Source: a virus. Taken from it: DNA of 5,726 nucleotides. The translations under genes were made by a program, and so were the position numbers. The notes beneath the pieces were generated by a model. It did no database searches, had not been told where the DNA came from, and saw only the letters and a program-made list of their open reading frames with translations. This document shows, in pieces, positions 1 through 5,726 of the stretch. The DNA lies in the IMG/VR virus record IMGVR_UViG_3300029570_000099, positions 1-5,726 of that record, one strand, 5' to 3'. How positions within the stretch are numbered: position 1 is the first letter of the stretch; every line of letters begins with the position of its first letter.

Positions 1-91
1 TGTTATTTACTCTCCTTTTTTACAGCCGGATGCCACCGCGCATAGGTTTCTGGCTGAGGTTGATACTTTTGGTTTTTCTTGCGGTTACGTT
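1..91. repeat. Terminal direct repeat, copy 1. It is identical to 5636..5726 and is the overlap produced when a circular genome is linearised.
   Basis: Base-by-base comparison shows 1..91 (tgttatttactctcc...gcggttacgtt) equals 5636..5726 exactly. That gives a circular unit of 5635 nt. The repeat cuts through the small basic ORF and through the SD and start codon of the VP5-like ORF, which fits an assembly artefact and not a biological LTR/ITR. Confidence 0.95.
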
Positions 92-121
92 AAACATGCG
101 GCGGTCTTTTGCGCCGCTCAT
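20..121 (-). CDS. Small highly basic protein of 33 aa, a candidate DNA-binding/packaging peptide of the microvirus J / gokushovirus VP8 type
   Basis: Hand translation of the minus strand from ATG 121..119 to TAA 22..20 gives MSGAKDRRMFNVTARKTKSINLSQKPMRGGIRL. It is too short for the supplied ORF track. It is rich in K/R and ends in P-M-R-G-G-I-R-L, which resembles the RGGxR[LF] C-terminus I recall for gokushovirus small basic ORF8 proteins such as SpV4 and Chlamydia phages. The ATG lies 4 nt after the stop of the 74-aa ORF (TAAAACAATG) with no SD of its own, so translation is probably coupled. An alternative start is ATG 97..95, giving 25 aa. Its stop overlaps the SD of the next gene. Confidence 0.55.
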   Translation of the reverse strand: MSGAKDRRMFNVTARKTKSINLSQKPMRGGIRL

Positions 122-125
122 TGTT

Positions 126-350
126 TTACGATGTCGTGCCATTGTTATACTCCCTTCGTATTAGCTCTAATTCAATGGCATTTACAAAGCTTTTCATCTG
201 CCAAATTTCATCTACCAGTTTTTTTGCATCTTCAATGTTTGACACTTTTTTAAGTATTTTGTAATTGCCATCGATTTCTTTGTATTTTCGTATGAGCAGT
301 TCTTCCAGTGCCTCTTTGGTCTGGTCTCTTACGTTCCATGTTTTCTGCAC
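126..350 (-). CDS. Hypothetical protein, 74 aa, predicted helical and charged, with a GTG start
   Basis: ORF track 126..350. The start codon is GTG (plus-strand cac at 348..350). It is preceded by AAAAGGAG (GGAG at 363..360) with a 9-nt spacer, and this SD lies in the last codons of the upstream 40-aa ORF. There is no TM segment, no signal peptide and no family motif that I recognise. Confidence 0.5.
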   Translation of the reverse strand: MQKTWNVRDQTKEALEELLIRKYKEIDGNYKILKKVSNIEDAKKLVDEIWQMKSFVNAIELELIRREYNNGTTS

Positions 351-356
351 TATGGT

Positions 357-479
357 TTACTCCTTTTCTTTTTCGTTGATGCTATCATGCAGCGCATGAT
401 AGATCTCGTCTAGCTTTTCCAAAATCTGCATCATAAGACGGATTGCCTGCTTGACGTCCTTAATGGAAATAAGTGCCAT
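357..479 (-). CDS. Hypothetical small protein, 40 aa (MALISIKDVKQAIRLMMQILEKLDEIYHALHDSINEKEKE)
   Basis: This is the internal Met of track ORF 357..572. ATG 479..477 is preceded by GAAAGGGGGTATAAC, an SD with a good spacer. It lies 1 nt after the peptidase stop (TAAC-ATG), so coupling is tight. The longer 71-aa version starting at 572 has no SD and would overlap the peptidase out of frame. The protein looks like an amphipathic helix with no TM segment. Confidence 0.45.
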   Translation of the reverse strand: MALISIKDVKQAIRLMMQILEKLDEIYHALHDSINEKEKE

Positions 480-480
480 G

Positions 481-873
481 TTATACCCCCTTTCTGTACT
501 TTTTAGTGCGTGTGTCGATGTGTACCCAAGTACTGTAAACGATAATGCCGCATTCATCCGGTATGATTGCATTCAGCTTTTTGGCAATTTCTTTTGCGGT
601 CATACCATTGACCCGTATGTCTGCTGCCATTCCTCGCATGTGGTATGAGTACTTTGCACCGCCTACTGCTTTATTCCTTGTCGGTGTCCGGTATCCACTG
701 TTGATGTATACCGGCTTACCGACTTGGTTTCTTAAGATGTCTAGGATAGATACTAGGTGGTCATCTATAAAAACTACTTGTGAGCCATCTTTACAAGCAA
801 ATTCTCGCACTTTGAAGTGCTGTCCTATTTTTTCGTTTGCGTCTGTGTCCATGATATAACATTTGATTGCCAT
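481..873 (-). CDS. Zn-dependent peptidoglycan peptidase of the M15 superfamily (Peptidase_M15_3 / YcbK-DUF882-like), a putative endolysin of 130 aa
   Basis: The translation contains SGYRTPTRNKAVGGAKYSYHMRGMAADI and WVHIDTR. These match the SGYR...N...GG...S-x-H-x-x-G-x-A-x-D and x-V-H-x-D zinc-ligand/catalytic pattern of M15A-type cell-wall peptidases. I prefer ATG 873..871 as the start because it is preceded by AAAGAGAGGTGAATAAC, an SD with a 6-nt spacer. The track start at 882 is a GTG lying inside that SD. There is no N-terminal signal or TM segment. Confidence 0.85.
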   Translation of the reverse strand: MAIKCYIMDTDANEKIGQHFKVREFACKDGSQVVFIDDHLVSILDILRNQVGKPVYINSGYRTPTRNKAVGGAKYSYHMRGMAADIRVNGMTAKEIAKKLNAIIPDECGIIVYSTWVHIDTRTKKYRKGV

Positions 874-895
874 GTTATTCACCTCTCTTTATCGT

Positions 896-924
896 ATTTT
901 ACCATTTTTTTAATCGCCTGTCAA
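896..924 (-). promoter_or_regulatory. Near-consensus sigma70/sigmaA-type promoter directly upstream of the peptidase operon
   Basis: The minus strand reads TTGACA (919..924), a 17-nt spacer ggcgattaaaaaaatgg, then TAAAAT (896..901). The spacer ends in TGg, which gives an extended -10 TGn. The predicted transcription start is about 15-20 nt upstream of ATG 873, leaving a short leader that holds the GAGAGGTG SD. Confidence 0.55.
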
Positions 925-1017: not shown

Positions 1018-1191
1018 TTTCAACAGTTTCAACAGTTTCAACAGGTTTTCAACAAAATATTGCACAATGATTTCCGTCATTTTGACGAACTTTCAACATT
1101 TCAACAAATTTTCAACAAATCTTTCAACACTGTTTTTTGCTTTTTATTTACGTTTTAACGTTAAATTTTAGTACTTATCAACTTTTCAACA
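1018..1191. repeat. Array of nine direct, same-orientation copies of TTTCAACA (TGTTGAAA on the coding strand), iteron-like
   Basis: Exact TTTCAACA 8-mers start at 1018, 1027, 1036, 1047, 1091, 1099, 1110, 1122 and 1184. The first three are spaced exactly 9 bp apart (cagtttcaa tandem). There are two clusters of four plus one outlier. An AT-rich stretch at 1131..1180 includes the 10-bp palindrome ttaacgttaa (1155..1164). Confidence 0.9.
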
Positions 1192-1268: not shown

Positions 1269-1311
1269 CGCGCGTGCGCGCGTGTGCGTTTCGCGCGCGT
1301 GCGCACGCGCG
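1269..1311. repeat. GC-rich inverted repeat (hairpin or cruciform) made of two 20-nt perfectly alternating pyrimidine-purine tracts
   Basis: Arm 1 is cgcgcgtgcgcgcgtgtgcg (1269..1288), followed by ttt, then arm 2 cgcgcgcgtgcgcacgcgcg (1292..1311). The arms pair over 20 positions: 17 Watson-Crick pairs plus 3 G.T pairs on the plus strand, which become A.C mismatches on the minus strand. The outer 11 bp are perfect. Both arms are strict (YR)10 and therefore Z-DNA-prone. By eye the GC content is far above the rest of the genome. Confidence 0.85.
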
Positions 1312-1422: not shown

Positions 1423-2442
1423 TTAAAGTGTCCCTCTCTTTTTCATCTGCTTCTTTATCACTCTCTCTTTCGTTTTGCATTGTTCTGCAAAGTTTGCATT
1501 TTCGTACTTTAGCCGGTTTTCTGCTATGGCCGCTGCTTGTCTGTTCTGTTTAATTCTCCACAATCTTTGTGGGTTTTCCGCTTCCATCATTTTTTCATAA
1601 TAACGTGGAATTTGTGCGCGTTTGCCGTTTGTGCATTGGATATACCCTTGTTTCCAGATCTCTGCTTTGTGTTCTTGATAGTAGTGATCTCCTAGACCTG
1701 GTTTAAGGCTCATACATGCAAAAGGTTTTTGTTGCCCTAGTTCATAGTATACGTTTGCTTTCTGTCCGTCAATTTCGTACATCTTTTTTGTAACGTATCC
1801 TGCAACATATCTATATGTTTCCGGTACTGCTTGTGCTATCTGTATTTGACCCATGCCCCATAGGTCTGTTAGCCATTTACTTGTGAAATATCCGTTGTGT
1901 TGTATCTTGTATAGGTGATCTAGGTCTGTTGGTCTCCATCCATATAGAATCATATGGTAATGTGGTCTTGCCGTTTGTTCTCCGTATTCTCCTGCTACGA
2001 AATAGCGTAATTTGCCTCCATAAGCCTTCCTGAGGCGTTTTAAGAACTTTTGAATGTCAGTATATAGCAACGTTTGGACGCTTTCAGGGCGCTTCTCTCC
2101 CGGTTTCCAGACGTATTGTACTTTTCGCATGATTTCGCCTGTGTTTACTATCATGCCCGGTACATGATCATCGTCATAAGTTAATGTGATAAACCAAACT
2201 TCTTCTCTTGGATAGTCTCGTGCTTCTAATTCTATACGTGTTGTCCAGTCCTCTCTCTGTCTTATTCTACATCCGATGCACTGCCCGCACGGTATTAACA
2301 TGACATCTTTTCTATACATCAGATCTTCATATTTTAGCTGCTTTCCCGATATTTCAGAAAAGCGGGCAAGTGAATACACCCGCCCGCTTATGTCTTTGTT
2401 TTCCGGGTTGTACAGCCTTATTAATGGCTTGTAACAACTCAC
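1423..2442 (-). CDS. VP4: Replication initiation protein, an HUH rolling-circle endonuclease (Microviridae VP4 / protein A family)
   Basis: The 339-aa ORF has FITLTY (motif I), RPHYHMILYG (the HUH motif, with HYH encoded at 1954..1962) and YRYVAGYVTKK (the tyrosine motif). It also has the N-terminal CYKP and the CGQCIGC cysteine cluster typical of gokushovirus VP4. The start is GTG 2442..2440, overlapping the VP2 stop as GTGA, with AGGTGA 9 nt upstream. Confidence 0.93.
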   Translation of the reverse strand: MSCYKPLIRLYNPENKDISGRVYSLARFSEISGKQLKYEDLMYRKDVMLIPCGQCIGCRIRQREDWTTRIELEARDYPREEVWFITLTYDDDHVPGMIVNTGEIMRKVQYVWKPGEKRPESVQTLLYTDIQKFLKRLRKAYGGKLRYFVAGEYGEQTARPHYHMILYGWRPTDLDHLYKIQHNGYFTSKWLTDLWGMGQIQIAQAVPETYRYVAGYVTKKMYEIDGQKANVYYELGQQKPFACMSLKPGLGDHYYQEHKAEIWKQGYIQCTNGKRAQIPRYYEKMMEAENPQRLWRIKQNRQAAAIAENRLKYENANFAEQCKTKERVIKKQMKKRGTL

Positions 2443-3308
2443 CTTAAATAATCACCTGCTTTTCTTTTTTCTCCGTAGGATCCAGTTTTGTCTTGTGGTG
2501 CTTGATAGCCGCTTTTATAGCCGCTTTTTCTGTCGCTCTTTTTTGGTACGTTTTTGTCGATAGCTTTGCTTGTGTCTTCTCCGATTTCTGTTAAGGCCTT
2601 TTGCAGTCCGTAAGGCGTCATTTGTGTAGAACTGAGCATCTGCTGCCAGCTTTGCGCTGCATTGTACCAGTCGCTTTTACTCCAACTGTTGCTTTCGTAT
2701 GCGTTAGGTACAAATCCTCCGCTTCGGCTTACTCCTAGTGCACTGCTGCTTGCAAGTCCCATACTTGCTCCACTGATTGTTCCTGCACTTCCTCCCGGTG
2801 TGCTTGCGCCGCCGTTTGCGAATGCTAAGATAGGGTTAAGCCCTGCTTTTTTCATGTCCTCAACGGCTCGCTGGTACGCTGTGTTTGACATGTGCTCTTG
2901 CCAGTTCCTGTTTGCTAGTGCTTCTGCGCTGTTGTAGTTCATTGCTACACTGTTTTCGATGTGGTTGTATACGCCTTGCATGATTGCTTGTAGCGTGTTA
3001 TAGCCCATCTGTTTTAACATACTCTGACTGTTGTATTTGCCTTGCATGGCTGCTTCTTGTCCTTGGTATGCGTATGCCTGTTTTAGCCAGTCATTGACTT
3101 GCTGTACGTTGGTGCCTGATTGACTTCCGCTTTCGGAGTGTCCGCCGCCTTGGCTTGTGCTGCCGCCGCTACTTTGGCTATTGCCTGTCTGCCCCCATCC
3201 GCCAAACGCTCCGGCTACGTTTTTAGCTGCTCCTGCAAAAGTTCCGATTGTGTTTGCTACGTTTCCCGCTACGTTTAGTGCTGTTAAGAGTCCAGATAAT
3301 CCACTCAT
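2439..3308 (-). CDS. VP2: Minor capsid / DNA pilot protein (Microviridae VP2, H-like)
   Basis: The 289-aa ORF has the hallmark block NRNWQEHMSNTAYQRAVEDMKKAGLNPILA, a Gly/Ser/Gln-rich low-complexity N-terminal half, and sits immediately after VP1. ATG 3308..3306 is the first possible start because an in-frame TAA lies directly upstream. Confidence 0.88.
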   Translation of the reverse strand: MSGLSGLLTALNVAGNVANTIGTFAGAAKNVAGAFGGWGQTGNSQSSGGSTSQGGGHSESGSQSGTNVQQVNDWLKQAYAYQGQEAAMQGKYNSQSMLKQMGYNTLQAIMQGVYNHIENSVAMNYNSAEALANRNWQEHMSNTAYQRAVEDMKKAGLNPILAFANGGASTPGGSAGTISGASMGLASSSALGVSRSGGFVPNAYESNSWSKSDWYNAAQSWQQMLSSTQMTPYGLQKALTEIGEDTSKAIDKNVPKKSDRKSGYKSGYQAPQDKTGSYGEKRKAGDYLR

Positions 3309-3336
3309 TTAAAAATAGCCCGGGTTTTGCCCGGGC
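3309..3336 (-). terminator. Intrinsic-terminator-like hairpin plus T-tract in the VP1-VP2 spacer
   Basis: The coding strand reads GCCCGGG-CAAAA-CCCGGGC-TATTTTTAA. The stem is 7 bp, all G/C (3318..3324 paired with 3330..3336), with a 5-nt loop, followed by TATTTTT. It lies between the VP1 stop (3348) and the VP2 ATG (3308). Confidence 0.55.
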
Positions 3337-3347
3337 ATCCTCCTTTC

Positions 3348-5009
3348 TTACAGTTTGTACAAGCCCGGTACGCTGTATAGTGGCATCCGTCTTGTGGTTT
3401 TGTTCGCTATGCGGATAGCGCCGAAAAATTGCGGCTCATTCTGCACGACGAGTGTGCGCGCAATTTCGGTCTTGCCTTCTTCCATCCAGTCTTGTGACAG
3501 TGTTGGTACGGTTGAATAATTGTCTGCGTAGTGCCAGAAATCCAACGTGCCTGTTGCGTTGCTTCGCATGAGGCCGCTTACCCGGTTTGGTTTCATTCGG
3601 TAGTCCGCCCAGGCCTCTTGATAGCCGAACGTTTCTTCGTCCGTTGCCGTGCCGGTCAACATGATCTCCTTTTTCTTTACAGGCTGCTCTCCCAGGTTTG
3701 CAAACTGTGGTACATAATAGTCAAGCCTGTCGCTTCTGCTCCAGAAACGTTCCAAGCCTTGCTGGTAACTGCGATTGTGTCGCACACAACAGACACCAAT
3801 TACAAACCCATGCTCTTCAAAAGATTTGGTAAAAGAGCTTTCGCTTACCGGCGTCACTGACATTGCACCAGTTTCGCCCAGCGGTAACTTATCGTTTGCC
3901 GCTGTCTGTACGATTTGGTTGATATTGACGTGATATCTGCCGCCGCCAAGGTATTCCGGCACCTGTACGGTTTTATCGCTGATAACTACGTTCCACAGTG
4001 CCTGTACCTGTTCACGGTAACGGCTGCCGCCTCGTGCGAGCGCTTCGTAGTACTGCTGTACTGCTACGGCTTTTCTTAAGTCGTTGATGGTTGCTGCGGT
4101 TACACTGCTAAGGTCTGCACCTAAGTATCCGCTCTTTTGAGTAGTGCCTTGGGATGTTGATGCGCCTACAACATGTGCAGCTTTTGGGTCGCTTACTGTT
4201 CCTACTTCATTGTATATTTCTGGTGCTCCTGAGCCTGTACCGTTCAAGTAAATGCTATTGCTTGGTGTCATCTTTTTTTTCAGGTCGGTGCTGTCGAATA
4301 GGTTTACTGCTGCGTTGCCTGCCATCGGCAGTGTTACTGCTGGCCCGCGCTGAGGATAAGGTAGACAGCTTGTGAAGTAGTCATGGAATTTGTTTACAGG
4401 CAACAGGTTTCCGCCTTTGTACGCGTTGTTTTCTGCTTCTTGCACCCAATCTTCTTTTCCAAATTCGTAGTCTACGTTTGCATCGTCTGTTTTTAATACT
4501 GCTGTGTTATCTACGTTTTCATCTCTGAAAAATTCGTTCCAGATTTTGACGTATGCTCTTATGGGCAGCGCGTTAATGCTAAATTCTTTTTTAATTTTGG
4601 TCGGTACTCCCATATAGTCCAGTATGGACCTTTCGTTTGGTTTTGGTGCTGCGTCCGTTCCTTTGATTTTGATTTGCGGCACTGCGTAATCTTTGCTTGG
4701 CATCCATGGCGTTGCCTCTACTTCTCCCATGAAGTGTTTGAAGTTGTCCCACAGAATTCTGTTAGGACAATAGAAGTAGTAGAAGTCAATGAATGCATCG
4801 TCCATCACTGGATACTTCGGTGTGCTCATTCGGATGATTGCTGCCGTGTCTACGTTGAAGGTATCGCCCGGTAATACTTCGTCAACATAGAATGGAATCA
4901 GCTTGCCGGAATCGAACGTTGTTAAAATTGTCTGATCACGGTTAAACCGCGTTCGACTTGCTTTCATTTCTGGAATCTGATTAAAGTGTCTTTCGTTGTT
5001 TCGATTCAC
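3348..5009 (-). CDS. VP1: Major capsid protein (Microviridae VP1 / F family)
   Basis: The 553-aa ORF has an N-terminus, HFNQIPEMKASRTRFNRDQTILTTFDSGKLIPFYVDEVLPGDTF...FYCPNRILWDNFKHFMGE, that matches the conserved gokushovirus VP1 opening. The size is typical. The start is GTG 5009..5007, preceded by GCAAAGGAGGAAGAAAA (AAGGAGG with a 7-nt spacer), and it overlaps the VP3 stop as GTGA. Confidence 0.95.
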   Translation of the reverse strand: MNRNNERHFNQIPEMKASRTRFNRDQTILTTFDSGKLIPFYVDEVLPGDTFNVDTAAIIRMSTPKYPVMDDAFIDFYYFYCPNRILWDNFKHFMGEVEATPWMPSKDYAVPQIKIKGTDAAPKPNERSILDYMGVPTKIKKEFSINALPIRAYVKIWNEFFRDENVDNTAVLKTDDANVDYEFGKEDWVQEAENNAYKGGNLLPVNKFHDYFTSCLPYPQRGPAVTLPMAGNAAVNLFDSTDLKKKMTPSNSIYLNGTGSGAPEIYNEVGTVSDPKAAHVVGASTSQGTTQKSGYLGADLSSVTAATINDLRKAVAVQQYYEALARGGSRYREQVQALWNVVISDKTVQVPEYLGGGRYHVNINQIVQTAANDKLPLGETGAMSVTPVSESSFTKSFEEHGFVIGVCCVRHNRSYQQGLERFWSRSDRLDYYVPQFANLGEQPVKKKEIMLTGTATDEETFGYQEAWADYRMKPNRVSGLMRSNATGTLDFWHYADNYSTVPTLSQDWMEEGKTEIARTLVVQNEPQFFGAIRIANKTTRRMPLYSVPGLYKL

Positions 5010-5404
5010 TTTTCTTCCTCCTTTGCTTCCGGTTCTGTTTTTGTTTCTGCTGCTGCCATTTTTTGCAGTTCTTCAAGTTTCATGGCGTTTGCCTGTGCGG
5101 TCGCTACCATTCGATGATACTCGTGAATGTTCTGCGGAAATTCCGTAATATCCGTGTATGTATCGTTTAATGCTCCCTCCGACAGATTTTTCAGAAACTG
5201 CGGGTCAAAACTTGCTTTTCGGACGATGCTTTTGATGTCGCATTCGTCAGAATAGCTTTCAATTTCCTGTTGGATGTCGATTGGTGCAGTTTCTTGCAGT
5301 ACTTCTTGCCCTTTTTCGTCCTTCGTCCAAACGTATTGTTTTTGCTCTTTTTCTCCCGGGTTAGAAAAGAAGGGCTTTCGCCCTTCTTCGTATCGTTTAT
5401 TCAT
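5006..5404 (-). CDS. VP3: Internal scaffolding protein (gokushovirus VP3-like), 132 aa
   Basis: I chose the internal Met of track ORF 5006..5524. ATG 5404..5402 is preceded by GGGAGGG with an 8-nt spacer and overlaps the upstream ORF stop (ATGAATAA). The track start at 5524 has GAAGG directly abutting the ATG and would overlap the VP5-like ORF by 120 nt. The sequence has DECDIKSIVRK and a later EYHRMVATAQ block resembling the conserved DECDINxI...Y(H/E)EA...AQ pattern of VP3, an acidic C-terminus, and a position directly upstream of VP1. Confidence 0.7.
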   Translation of the reverse strand: MNKRYEEGRKPFFSNPGEKEQKQYVWTKDEKGQEVLQETAPIDIQQEIESYSDECDIKSIVRKASFDPQFLKNLSEGALNDTYTDITEFPQNIHEYHRMVATAQANAMKLEELQKMAAAETKTEPEAKEEEK

Positions 5405-5636
5405 GCGGCTTGCCCTCCCATACCTTTTCCTTTTCGTTGGCAAACTCACCGTTTTCGTCGTCAAACTCTGCCAACTTAAAGCCGGTGTAGTCACCAGGTG
5501 CCTGCCCGACAAACGTTTTTTCATCCTTCGCCATTACGTTGCACATACGTGCAAAGGTTGCGTTGTTCTTGCTCTCGCCTACCCATGCATAGCACTTTGC
5601 TACATTGTCCCACAGGCCAAAATATTCATGCTTCAT
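5397..5636 (-). CDS. VP5: Small non-structural protein, gokushovirus VP5-like, 79 aa
   Basis: ATG 5636..5634 is preceded, across the circular junction, by AAAAAGGAGAGTAAATAAC, a strong SD. The sequence pattern is MKHEYFGLWDNVAKCY...NNATFARMC...APGDYTGFKLAEFDDENGEF. It resembles the ...D.vA..y......N.a.a.R.F...P.Dy.L..lG.fDd.tG.. pattern I recall for VP5/ORF5 proteins. The position upstream of VP3-VP1 fits. Confidence 0.6.
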   Translation of the reverse strand: MKHEYFGLWDNVAKCYAWVGESKNNATFARMCNVMAKDEKTFVGQAPGDYTGFKLAEFDDENGEFANEKEKVWEGKPHE

Positions 5637-5726
5637 GTTATTTACTCTCCTTTTTTACAGCCGGATGCCACCGCGCATAGGTTTCTGGCTGAGGTTGATA
5701 CTTTTGGTTTTTCTTGCGGTTACGTT
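5636..5726. repeat. Terminal direct repeat, copy 2 (identical to 1..91)
   Basis: See copy 1. This copy also holds a truncated duplicate of the 3' part of the 33-aa basic ORF (5655..5726), which should not be counted as a separate gene. Confidence 0.95.

What the first reader, a model, noticed from the sequence alone, without database searches (positions are those of the whole stretch)
357..924. Cell-wall peptidase (M15) cassette with its own strong promoter in a microvirus, but no holin, signal peptide or amurin
Classical Microviridae lyse without a muralytic enzyme. phiX174 protein E blocks MraY, and no lysis gene has been established for gokushoviruses. Here a 130-aa M15/YcbK-type Zn peptidase (SYHMRGMAAD and WVHID motifs) sits behind a TTGACA-17-TAAAAT promoter with an extended -10. 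It heads a translationally coupled three-ORF unit. I found no TM segment or signal sequence in the enzyme or in any credible ORF on the coding strand, so its route to the peptidoglycan is unexplained. I recall M15-type ORFs being noted sporadically in metagenomic microviruses, but I cannot verify that here, and I know of no functional work on them. Alternatives to an endolysin role include help with entry or a role as an immunity/modification enzyme.
Basis: partly seen in the sequence, partly recalled or inferred. Interest (0 to 1): 0.72.

Follow-up and report, generated by a model that had tools for sequence, protein, structure and literature searches.

The report
Known gut-microvirus cell-wall peptidase, holin-less
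This small gut virus carries a zinc enzyme that cuts bacterial cell walls. The gene has been known in such viruses since 2012, and only how the enzyme crosses the cell membrane without a helper protein remains unexplained.

Summary
Window 481-873 (- strand) encodes a 130-aa Peptidase_M15_3 protein (Pfam E 2e-23) with an invariant H78/D85/H118 zinc triad. A TTGACA-17-TGgTAAAAT promoter lies 22 nt upstream, and no frame of the coding strand contains a transmembrane-grade segment.

The interpretation needs correcting in three places.
- M15_3 peptidases in human-gut gokushoviruses were published in 2012 (Roux et al.), which proposed them as endolysins with Faecalibacterium affinity. GenBank relatives are annotated "peptidase M15". 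I found more than 1,300 homologue clusters, and 78 of 80 close IMG/VR relatives carry the gene.
- The promoter is the genome's only strong one. It sits at the end of the only large non-coding region and most likely drives seven tightly packed genes through VP1.
- The two downstream ORFs are backbone genes. They also occur in six peptidase-less gokushoviruses.

Homologues in Clostridia prophages and Faecalibacterium tailed phages usually sit beside membrane proteins (63 of 80), so the microvirus took the lysin without its holin.

Best reading: an accessory endolysin added to an unidentified gokushovirus lysis trigger. The membrane-crossing step is inferred, not shown.

Novelty is low. The holin-less puzzle is real, but it is not new to this window.

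The parts
896..924 (-). Sigma-70/SigA-type promoter: TTGACA, 17 nt, TGg-TAAAAT (extended -10). Its -10 element ends 22 nt upstream of the peptidase ATG.
   Evidence: It is the only 11/12 match in the genome and has TG before the -10. Forty-four of 93 relatives have an >=11/12 match within 150 nt upstream of the peptidase start. The chance of one such match anywhere in the genome is about 0.1.
481..873 (-). Peptidase_M15_3 (LAS-fold zinc peptidase), 130 aa, pI 9.5, with no signal peptide and no TM segment. The zinc-ligand codons are H78 at 640-642, D85 at 619-621 and H118 at 520-522. D120 is at 514-516.
   Evidence: Pfam 82.8 bits and PHROG 894 endolysin. The triad is invariant. The AF2 model has pLDDT 78.5. 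Foldseek matches VanY, 1LBU, VanXYc, LdcB and ChiX, and viral 'Peptidase M15A' proteins including several from microviruses.
357..479 (-). ORF2, 40 aa, acidic, with one strongly amphipathic helix (muH 0.70). Its start lies 1 nt after the peptidase stop, behind an AAGGGGG Shine-Dalgarno sequence.
   Evidence: Found in 93 of 94 related genomes. Its frame is open in 67 of 70 full-length matches. It is also present at 66-72% identity in five peptidase-less gokushoviruses (L097-L101), with only a weak 37% match in the sixth, L102. No family hit.
126..350 (-). ORF3, 74 aa, GTG start behind an AAGGAG Shine-Dalgarno sequence. Predicted as a two-helix hairpin.
   Evidence: Found in 87 of 94 relatives. 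It has 2740 homologue clusters, and all 120 listed are on contigs of 6.2 kb or less. AF2 pLDDT is 90.8. No informative fold match.
20..142 (-). ORF8-like gene, 40 aa, highly basic (pI 12). It overlaps the ORF3 end by 17 nt, and VP5 follows 18 nt later. This shows that the transcription unit continues into the structural genes.
   Evidence: PHROG 10695. Present in 94 of 94 relatives. RBS and pI.
3318..3336 (-). Intrinsic terminator (7 G-C pairs followed by a T-run) just after VP1. It is the first convincing terminator downstream of the promoter.

Best explanation
The gene encodes a soluble, single-domain LAS-fold (M15_3/M15A) zinc peptidase that cleaves peptidoglycan stem peptides. An ancestor of this gut gokushovirus clade acquired it from the lysis cassettes of tailed phages or prophages of Clostridia (Oscillospirales, Faecalibacterium-like hosts), but without the neighbouring holin.

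It is now a fixed gene of the clade. In this genome it is the first cistron behind the single strong promoter, so it is probably made throughout infection and accumulates harmlessly in the cytoplasm.

I infer that it acts as an accessory endolysin. It reaches and dissolves the wall only after the membrane barrier fails. That failure would come from the still-unidentified lysis trigger that peptidase-less gokushoviruses must also have. Candidates encoded here are the glycine-rich hydrophobic N-terminus of the pilot protein VP2 and the amphipathic 40-aa ORF2.

Shown here: enzyme family, zinc triad, fold, promoter, synteny, absence of TM proteins, and holin-like (TM-containing) ORFs beside most cellular homologues. 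Inferred: muralytic activity, the role in release, the host phylum, and the route across the membrane.
For: - Family, catalytic residues and fold.
- Closest non-microviral relatives are annotated or contextual endolysins. Faecalibacterium phages FP_Toutatis and Lelie have a 137-aa stand-alone M15 endolysin, 46% identical, followed by two TM proteins.
- Eighty Clostridia genome loci carry homologues at 39-53% identity, and 63 of them have a TM ORF within 1 kb on the same strand.
- The gene is fixed in the clade: 78 of 80 relatives have it, and the two exceptions are contigs truncated at that point.
- Two divergent allele classes occupy the same slot, which suggests selection to keep a lysin there.
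- Six backbone-sharing gokushoviruses lack the peptidase, so a separate lysis trigger must exist.
- Strong Shine-Dalgarno sequences on 7 of 9 genes and an extended -10 promoter fit a Firmicute host rather than a Bacteroidetes host (the link to host phylum is general knowledge).
- The endolysin proposal and the Faecalibacterium affinity agree with Roux et al. 2012.
Against: - No holin, signal peptide, SAR domain or any TM-grade segment is encoded, so the key export step has no identified agent.
- Antisense hydrophobic ORFs are not conserved as open frames.
- There is no cell-wall-binding domain.
- The enzyme is expressed from what looks like a constitutive promoter, so nothing visible sets the timing.
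- No experiment exists for this enzyme, and the host is unknown.
- No cellular genome among 185,579 species representatives holds a close relative.
- The AF2 model has only moderate confidence, and its PDB matches are weak (best E about 1e-3).
Confidence: 0.6

Rival explanations
1. Entry enzyme. The peptidase is carried in or on the virion, or released with the pilot protein, and opens the thick wall of a monoderm host locally during DNA delivery. The analogy is with virion-associated lysins of tailed phages and with P5 of phi6.
For: M15A-fold domains also occur inside very large tail or baseplate-type proteins of tailed phages, such as the 'Gp5 N-terminal OB-fold domain' proteins among the BFVD matches. 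Ebor Gp7, a microviral peptidoglycan hydrolase, was detected in trace amounts in virions. A tailless T=1 virus infecting a thick-walled host would plausibly need such help. That last point is inference.
Against: The nearest relatives are stand-alone lysis-cassette endolysins next to holin-like proteins. No capsid- or pilot-binding extension is present in a 130-aa single domain. Close backbone relatives manage without the enzyme. Internal volume in a T=1 capsid is limited (general knowledge).
Confidence: 0.12
2. Cytoplasmic 'enzymatic amurin'. The enzyme never leaves the cytoplasm. It trims the D-Ala-D-Ala end of UDP-MurNAc-pentapeptide or lipid II, as VanY, VanX and the Streptomyces zinc DD-carboxypeptidase do. 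This starves transpeptidation, so the growing cell lyses without any holin.
For: The only sequence-level PDB match is the S. albus muramoyl-pentapeptide carboxypeptidase 1LBU. The top structural matches are VanY, VanXYc and 1LBU. This reading would explain the absence of a holin, a signal peptide and a wall-binding domain, and the tolerance of early constitutive expression would then need explaining differently.
Against: Homologues at 39-53% identity sit in classical holin-lysin contexts, which implies action on the mature wall. Constitutive early expression of a precursor-destroying enzyme would risk lysis before assembly. Substrate specificity cannot be read from the sequence.
Confidence: 0.1
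3. ORF2 supplies the missing membrane step. The 40-aa amphipathic-helix peptide encoded 1 nt after the peptidase permeabilises the membrane without a classical TM segment, so that peptidase and ORF2 form a minimal lysis pair.
For: ORF2 has a hydrophobic moment of 0.70 at mean hydrophobicity of about 0. It lies immediately after the lysin behind a strong RBS. It is more conserved than the capsid across lineages: 69-79% identity where VP1 is 42-47%. It is present together with the peptidase in the distant genomes L001 and L011.
Against: ORF2 is acidic (net charge -2), whereas most membrane-active peptides are not. It occurs in peptidase-less genomes. Microviral peptidases of other lineages, such as the Dulem viruses, occur without ORF2. 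An amphipathic helix fits a coiled-coil or protein-binding role equally well.
Confidence: 0.1
4. Not a lysis function at all. The enzyme remodels the wall for superinfection exclusion or receptor masking, or it is a dispensable passenger gene.
For: There is no direct evidence for it. It is only not excluded, because no phenotype has been measured.
Against: The gene is retained in 78 of 80 relatives of a roughly 5.6-kb genome under strong size constraint. Its catalytic residues are invariant, and alleles have been replaced in the same slot. A passenger gene would be lost.
Confidence: 0.05

Closest known systems
M15_3 peptidases of human-gut Gokushovirinae (Roux et al. 2012, PMC3394797; GenBank KX513876, KX513868 and KX513877 'peptidase M15'; MG945xxx 'similar to peptidase')
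   Same: Same protein family, same virus group and same habitat. The protein is 62-88% identical and the genome is up to 85% identical at nucleotide level. Gene order is the same. The same endolysin proposal and the same link to Faecalibacterium were already made.
   Different: Nothing essential differs. This window is one more genome of that clade. Added here: the peptidase is fixed in the clade, there are two allele classes, the downstream ORFs are backbone genes, and the absence of TM proteins is quantified.
Stand-alone M15 endolysins of Faecalibacterium tailed phages (FP_Toutatis AUV56799, Lelie) and of Clostridia prophages
   Same: Same size (130-140 aa), single domain, no signal peptide, 39-53% identity and the same zinc triad.
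   Different: Those genes sit beside one or two small TM proteins that are presumed holins. This holds for 63 of 80 loci. The microvirus has none.
phiX174 protein E and other single-gene lysis proteins (amurins)
   Same: A small ssDNA or ssRNA phage that lyses without a holin-endolysin pair. The genome economy is the same.
   Different: Amurins are non-enzymatic inhibitors of MraY, MurA or MurJ and mostly carry a TM helix (general knowledge). Here there is a true peptidase domain and no TM helix. No E-like overprinted ORF was found in any frame.
Ebor Gp7 (Tainavirinae microvirus of Rhodobacter; PMC11980548)
   Same: A roughly 146-aa accessory peptidoglycan hydrolase in a microvirus. It is the only one I found with demonstrated activity on peptidoglycan.
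   Different: Different subfamily and an alphaproteobacterial (diderm) host. Ebor also encodes a 45-aa predicted membrane protein, Gp1. I did not establish whether Gp7 is an M15 enzyme.
Streptomyces albus zinc D-Ala-D-Ala carboxypeptidase (1LBU, MEROPS M15A) and VanY/VanXY
   Same: Shared LAS fold and the H-x6-D...H zinc site.
   Different: Identity is only 22-27% over part of the chain. Those are cellular enzymes with other domains or membrane anchors. Substrate preference cannot be transferred.

Membership tests
Peptidase_M15_3 (Pfam PF08291; MEROPS M15A-like, LAS fold) | Whole-protein score above Pfam's gathering threshold | tested here: met
   82.8 bits against a cut-off of 23.2, E 2.3e-23, covering profile positions 2-108 of 108
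Peptidase_M15_3 (Pfam PF08291; MEROPS M15A-like, LAS fold) | Zinc-binding H-x6-D ... H triad conserved | tested here: met
   H78, D85 and H118 (plus D120) are invariant in 37 sequences reaching down to 41% identity. The H-x6-D stretch aligns with that of 1LBU.
Peptidase_M15_3 (Pfam PF08291; MEROPS M15A-like, LAS fold) | LAS-type alpha/beta fold | tested here: met
   The AF2 model has pLDDT 78.5. The best PDB matches are VanY, 1LBU, VanXYc, Shh-N, LdcB and ChiX. The BFVD matches are 'Peptidase M15A' proteins at E down to 2.5e-13. Confidence is moderate, and the first 17 residues are disordered.
Peptidase_M15_3 (Pfam PF08291; MEROPS M15A-like, LAS fold) | Zinc-dependent hydrolysis of peptidoglycan stem peptides | not testable with these tools
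   Needs purified protein tested on sacculi or muropeptides
Canonical holin-endolysin lysis cassette | Muralytic enzyme gene | tested here: met
Canonical holin-endolysin lysis cassette | Adjacent small protein with at least one TM helix (holin) | tested here: not met
   No coding-strand frame reaches a Kyte-Doolittle 19-residue mean of 1.6; the maximum is 1.10. ORF2 and ORF3 are soluble helical proteins. By contrast, 63 of 80 cellular homologues have a TM neighbour.
Secreted or SAR endolysin | N-terminal signal peptide or signal-anchor-release domain | tested here: not met
   The N-terminus is MAIKCYIMDTDANEKIG. It has no hydrophobic stretch, and the highest 17-residue hydrophobicity within the protein is 1.26.
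MepK/YcbK peptidoglycan L,D-endopeptidase (NCBIfam NF053624; Pfam M15_2/DUF882) | Score above the equivalog cut-off | tested here: not met
   50.2 bits against a cut-off of 185. Pfam M15_2 gives 33.4 bits, well below the M15_3 score. The 'YcbK-type' label comes only from automatic JGI naming.
Amurin / single-gene lysis protein | Small non-enzymatic, usually membrane-anchored inhibitor of a cell-wall synthesis step, often overprinted | tested here: not met
   The candidate is an enzyme domain. No hydrophobic overprinted frame exists on the coding strand. Antisense hydrophobic ORFs are not kept open in relatives.
Gokushovirinae-type microvirus genome | VP1 (Phage_F), VP2 pilot, VP3 (Chlamy_scaf), VP4 Rep and VP5 (Phage_ORF5) on one strand of a roughly 4.5-6 kb circle | tested here: met
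   The genome is 85% identical at nucleotide level to Human gut gokushovirus KX513868.

The most novel reading that the evidence does not exclude
This clade, abundant in the human and pig gut, lyses a monoderm Clostridia host with a soluble endolysin and no membrane protein at all. Release would then depend on a mechanism not yet described. Two candidates are a non-TM amphipathic peptide (ORF2) or the pilot protein VP2 acting as a holin substitute, or the M15 enzyme destroying cytoplasmic wall precursors as an 'enzymatic amurin'.
Probability: 0.15. Interest if true: 0.75.

Novelty: already known. Interest (0 to 1): 0.27.

Why it matters
How gokushoviruses lyse their hosts is still unknown, and they are among the most abundant phages in the mammalian gut. 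This clade keeps a borrowed endolysin but encodes no membrane protein, so it is a compact system for asking how a lysin can reach the wall without a holin. If the Clostridia host assignment is right, it would also support the long-standing suggestion that some microviruses infect Gram-positive-type bacteria. Neither point is specific to this window. The gene, the endolysin hypothesis and the Faecalibacterium link were all published in 2012.

Tried and rejected
- Hidden holin on the coding strand. I scanned all three frames, ignoring start codons. Nothing reached TM grade.
- Antisense holin. The T-rich opposite strand gives many hydrophobic ORFs, but they are not kept open in relatives. The ORF antisense to the peptidase is open in 1 of 72 relatives. 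The two best antisense ORFs are open in about 78%, against 96-100% for real genes.
- ORF2 and ORF3 as peptidase-specific partners or chaperones, by analogy with Ms6 Gp1. Rejected as a strict link, because both occur in peptidase-less genomes.
- The 43-aa ORF at 949-1080 ('LLKLLKLLK'). It is a by-product of the TTTCAACA DNA repeats, it is intact in only 12 of 83 relatives, and it has no Shine-Dalgarno sequence.
- ORF3 fold search. It returned only generic helical-hairpin matches, all with E above 0.4.
- Pfam, PHROGs and NCBIfam gave nothing for ORF2 or ORF3.
- Host from bacterial genomes. No close relative of the peptidase exists in 185,579 species genomes, and I ran no scan of bacterial genomes for capsid or replication genes, so no prophage or episome evidence was obtained.
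- Rfam found no known RNA family.
- The GC-rich hairpin at 1269-1311 folds no better than shuffled sequence of the same composition.
- MepK/YcbK identity was rejected on score.
Full report
WHAT THE WINDOW IS

Positions 1-91 repeat 5636-5726, so the window is a complete circular genome of 5635 nt. All recognisable genes lie on the - strand.
- VP5-like (Phage_ORF5): 5397-5636.
- VP3 scaffold (Chlamy_scaf): ending at 5006.
- VP1 capsid (Phage_F, E 2e-138): 3348-5009.
- VP2 pilot (PHROG 8742): 2439-3308.
- VP4 replication initiator: 1423-2442.
- A 40-aa basic ORF8-like protein: 20-142.

The nearest GenBank genomes are 'Human gut gokushovirus' KX513868 and KT264791, at about 85% nucleotide identity over about 80% of the genome. 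The single large non-coding region is 883-1422.

CHECKING THE OBSERVATION

Peptidase. The CDS at 873..481 gives a 130-aa protein. It scores 82.8 bits on Pfam Peptidase_M15_3 (cut-off 23.2) and 33.4 bits on M15_2/DUF882. It hits PHROG 894 'endolysin' at 1e-43. NCBIfam's MepK model scores far below its cut-off, 50 against 185, so 'YcbK-type' overstates the match.

I aligned the protein with 12 microviral and 24 Faecalibacterium-phage or prophage homologues, reaching down to 41% identity. H78, D85, H118 and D120 are invariant. I checked the codons directly at 640-642, 619-621, 520-522 and 514-516.

An AlphaFold2 model has mean pLDDT 78.5, with the first 17 residues disordered. Its best PDB matches are VanY, the S. 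albus zinc DD-carboxypeptidase 1LBU, VanXYc, Sonic hedgehog N-domain, LdcB and ChiX, which together define the LAS/M15 fold. The E-values are weak, about 1e-3 at best. Against predicted viral structures it matches 'Peptidase M15A' proteins at E down to 2.5e-13, including several from marine microviruses.

Promoter. The promoter TTGACA-17 nt-TGgTAAAAT at 924..896 is the only 11/12 match in the genome. A match of that quality somewhere in a sequence of this size and composition has about a 10% chance. Its credibility therefore rests on two things. It lies on the coding strand 22 nt before the first start codon after the non-coding region. And 44 of 93 relatives have an >=11/12 match within 150 nt upstream of the peptidase start.

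Membrane proteins. No ORF of 25 aa or more on the coding strand has a 19-residue Kyte-Doolittle window of 1.6 or higher. Scanning every frame stop-to-stop regardless of start codon gives maxima of 1.10 over 19 residues (VP2 N-terminus) and 1.38 over 17 residues. The peptidase N-terminus (MAIKCYIMDTDANEK...) is not a signal or SAR sequence.

WHERE THE INTERPRETATION NEEDS CORRECTING

First, this is not a self-contained cassette with a private promoter. The gene spacing downstream of the promoter is as follows.
- Peptidase to ORF2: 1 nt.
- ORF2 to ORF3: 6 nt.
- ORF3 to ORF8: 17-nt overlap.
- ORF8 to VP5: 18 nt.
- VP5 to VP3: 8-nt overlap.
- VP3 to VP1: 4-nt overlap.

Each of these genes has a strong Shine-Dalgarno sequence. 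The first convincing terminator on that strand is the G+C hairpin at 3336..3318, just after VP1. The promoter is therefore most simply the main promoter of the genome, and the peptidase is its first cistron. In about half of the relatives other ORFs lie between the non-coding region and the peptidase.

Second, ORF2 and ORF3 are not partners of the enzyme. I examined 14 GenBank relatives and 80 IMG/VR genomes chosen only by VP1 similarity of 73% or more. ORF2 is present in 93 of these 94 genomes and ORF3 in 87. But five more distant gokushoviruses (VP1 45-47% identical: KT264798, KT264799, MG945157, MG945135 and MG945391) carry ORF2 at 66-72% identity. KT264788 (VP1 57% identical) has only a weak 37% ORF2 match, but ORF3 at 53%. 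All six carry ORF8, five have an ORF3 or ORF3-like match, and none has a match to a peptidase HMM. Conversely, microviral M15 peptidases of other lineages, such as the Dulem viruses, occur without ORF2.

ORF2 is a 40-aa acidic peptide with one strongly amphipathic helix (muH 0.70). ORF3 is a confidently predicted two-helix hairpin (pLDDT 90.8) with no informative structural neighbour. Neither matches any family.

Third, the feature is well known.
- Roux et al. 2012 reported M15_3 peptidases in 11 human-associated Microviridae, 5 of them Gokushovirinae. They showed that 4 of those 5 group with Faecalibacterium genes that lie beside holins in prophage-like cassettes. [quoted passage not shown]
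- Kirchberger et al. 2022 list peptidases among the few accessory genes of microviruses and document their exchange between families.
- GenBank records annotate the gene.
- The protein has more than 1,364 homologue clusters at 90% identity. The best 120 are 84-95% identical, and nearly all lie on microvirus-sized contigs.
- Functional work now exists for one microviral wall hydrolase. Purified Ebor Gp7 degrades Rhodobacter peptidoglycan and is found in trace amounts in virions. Ebor belongs to another subfamily and also encodes a small membrane protein.

WHAT I COULD ADD

1. The gene is fixed in this clade. Seventy-eight of 80 VP1-selected relatives have it, and the two exceptions are short contigs cut exactly at that point.

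2. Its identity to the window's allele ranges from 45 to 94% while the backbone stays at 73-98%. Clustering gives two allele classes in the same slot. One has 74 genomes at 61-94% identity to the window allele. The other has 15 genomes at 46-53%. The two classes are as far from each other as from Clostridia prophage alleles. This suggests replacement by recombination and selection to keep a lysin there.

3. A pattern scan of one genome per bacterial or archaeal species (185,579 species) found no close relative. A profile-based scan found 80 loci at 39-53% identity. Almost all are in Clostridia (Eubacteriales, Acutalibacteraceae, Oscillospiraceae, Faecalibacterium), mostly on prophage-sized contigs.

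4. In 63 of those 80 loci a TM-containing ORF of 40-250 aa lies within 1 kb on the same strand, often directly abutting the peptidase. In FP_Toutatis the 137-aa endolysin is followed by a 131-aa and a 105-aa protein that each have a TM segment. The microvirus therefore took the lysin and left the holin.

5. Hydrophobic ORFs on the opposite, T-rich strand are compositional artefacts. The one antisense to the peptidase stays open in 1 of 72 relatives. The best two stay open in about 78%. Real genes stay open in 96-100%.

6. Four of 89 genomes have an insertion at the ORF8-VP5 junction. In all four the insert encodes a peptide with a single strongly hydrophobic segment (17-residue mean 2.2-2.4), three of them within ATG- or GTG-initiated ORFs of 29-39 aa. 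Three of these genomes carry the peptidase and one does not. The window has only 18 nt at that junction.

MOST LIKELY MECHANISM

The enzyme is a soluble peptidoglycan peptidase used for progeny release. It accumulates in the cytoplasm as lambda R does. It acts once the membrane barrier fails.

Peptidase-less relatives with the same backbone must also lyse their hosts. The membrane-compromising or wall-synthesis-blocking trigger is therefore probably a backbone function that has not been recognised, and the peptidase is an accessory that finishes the wall. That would matter most for a thick-walled monoderm host.

A Firmicute host is suggested by three things. The homologues are clostridial. Most genes have strong Shine-Dalgarno sequences. 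The promoter has an extended -10 element.

All of this beyond enzyme family, fold, synteny and the absence of TM proteins is inference. I put about 0.6 on the endolysin role. About 0.1 goes to each of three alternatives: an entry-associated role, a cytoplasmic precursor-cleaving role, and ORF2 as the membrane partner.

VERDICT

But it re-describes a published, database-annotated and very common feature of gut gokushoviruses, and the 'cassette with its own promoter' framing does not hold. The open question of how a lysin gets out without a holin is real and testable, but it belongs to the whole clade rather than to this window.

LIMITS OF THE EVIDENCE

- TM prediction used hydropathy windows, not a trained predictor.
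- ORFs under 25 aa were examined only through the frame scan.
- The AF2 model of the enzyme is of moderate quality.
- The host assignment is indirect.

Noticed in passing
window 1018-1191 (+ strand as given; TGTTGAAA on the coding strand): Nine same-orientation copies of the octamer TTTCAACA lie within 174 nt of the non-coding region, 95-270 nt upstream of the promoter. Only 0.29 copies are expected by chance. Most relatives have 4-9 copies, including peptidase-less gokushoviruses (L097 has 8). KT264784 shares this stretch at 76% identity although the search found no other matching region in that genome. It looks like an iteron-like protein-binding array, perhaps an origin or a regulatory element.
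   Followed up: partly
L006 (KT264793) 5057-5176; L057 3251-3340; L044 between ORF8 and VP5; L102 (KT264788) 4756-4872: Four of 89 related genomes have a 63-112-nt insertion exactly at the ORF8-VP5 junction. In each the inserted stretch encodes a segment with one strongly hydrophobic stretch, and in L006 and L102 a basic tail; an ORF with a start codon was called in three (L006 39 aa, L057 29 aa, L102 38 aa), for example MITFLAIMFSMIACYAIIV...KKWRNEK. These are candidate holin- or amurin-like lysis peptides. One of the four genomes lacks the peptidase. The window has no such insertion.
   Followed up: partly
window 481-873 compared with loci L017-L096: Two divergent peptidase allele classes occupy the same genomic slot in otherwise similar backbones. 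One class has 74 genomes at 61-94% identity to the window allele. The other has 15 genomes at 46-53%. This implies allele replacement by recombination.
   Followed up: partly
window 357-479 (-): ORF2 (40 aa, amphipathic helix) is better conserved across gokushovirus lineages than the capsid protein. It is 66-79% identical where VP1 is only 42-47% identical. Its function is unknown.
   Followed up: partly
window 1269-1311: A G+C-rich alternating (CGCGCGTG-type) inverted repeat with 20-nt arms at 85% complementarity sits in the non-coding region. It folds at -21 kcal/mol, but no better than shuffled sequence of the same composition. It could be a complementary-strand origin or a terminator after VP4.
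   Followed up: partly
window 3309-3347 and 3308 (-): The strong terminator after VP1 is followed directly by the VP2 start codon with no recognisable Shine-Dalgarno sequence, unlike the seven upstream genes. This suggests attenuated expression of VP2 and VP4.
   Followed up: no
window 1-91 and 5636-5726: An exact 91-nt terminal redundancy shows that the contig is a circular genome of 5635 nt. The window contains slightly more than one genome copy.
   Followed up: yes
L042 (8781 nt), L045 (10711 nt), L078 (7207 nt): Three IMG/VR contigs of this clade are much longer than a microvirus genome. In L042 and L078 the coding-strand scan finds several hydrophobic ORFs outside the regions matched by the core genes. 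They may be chimeric assemblies or concatemers.
   Followed up: no
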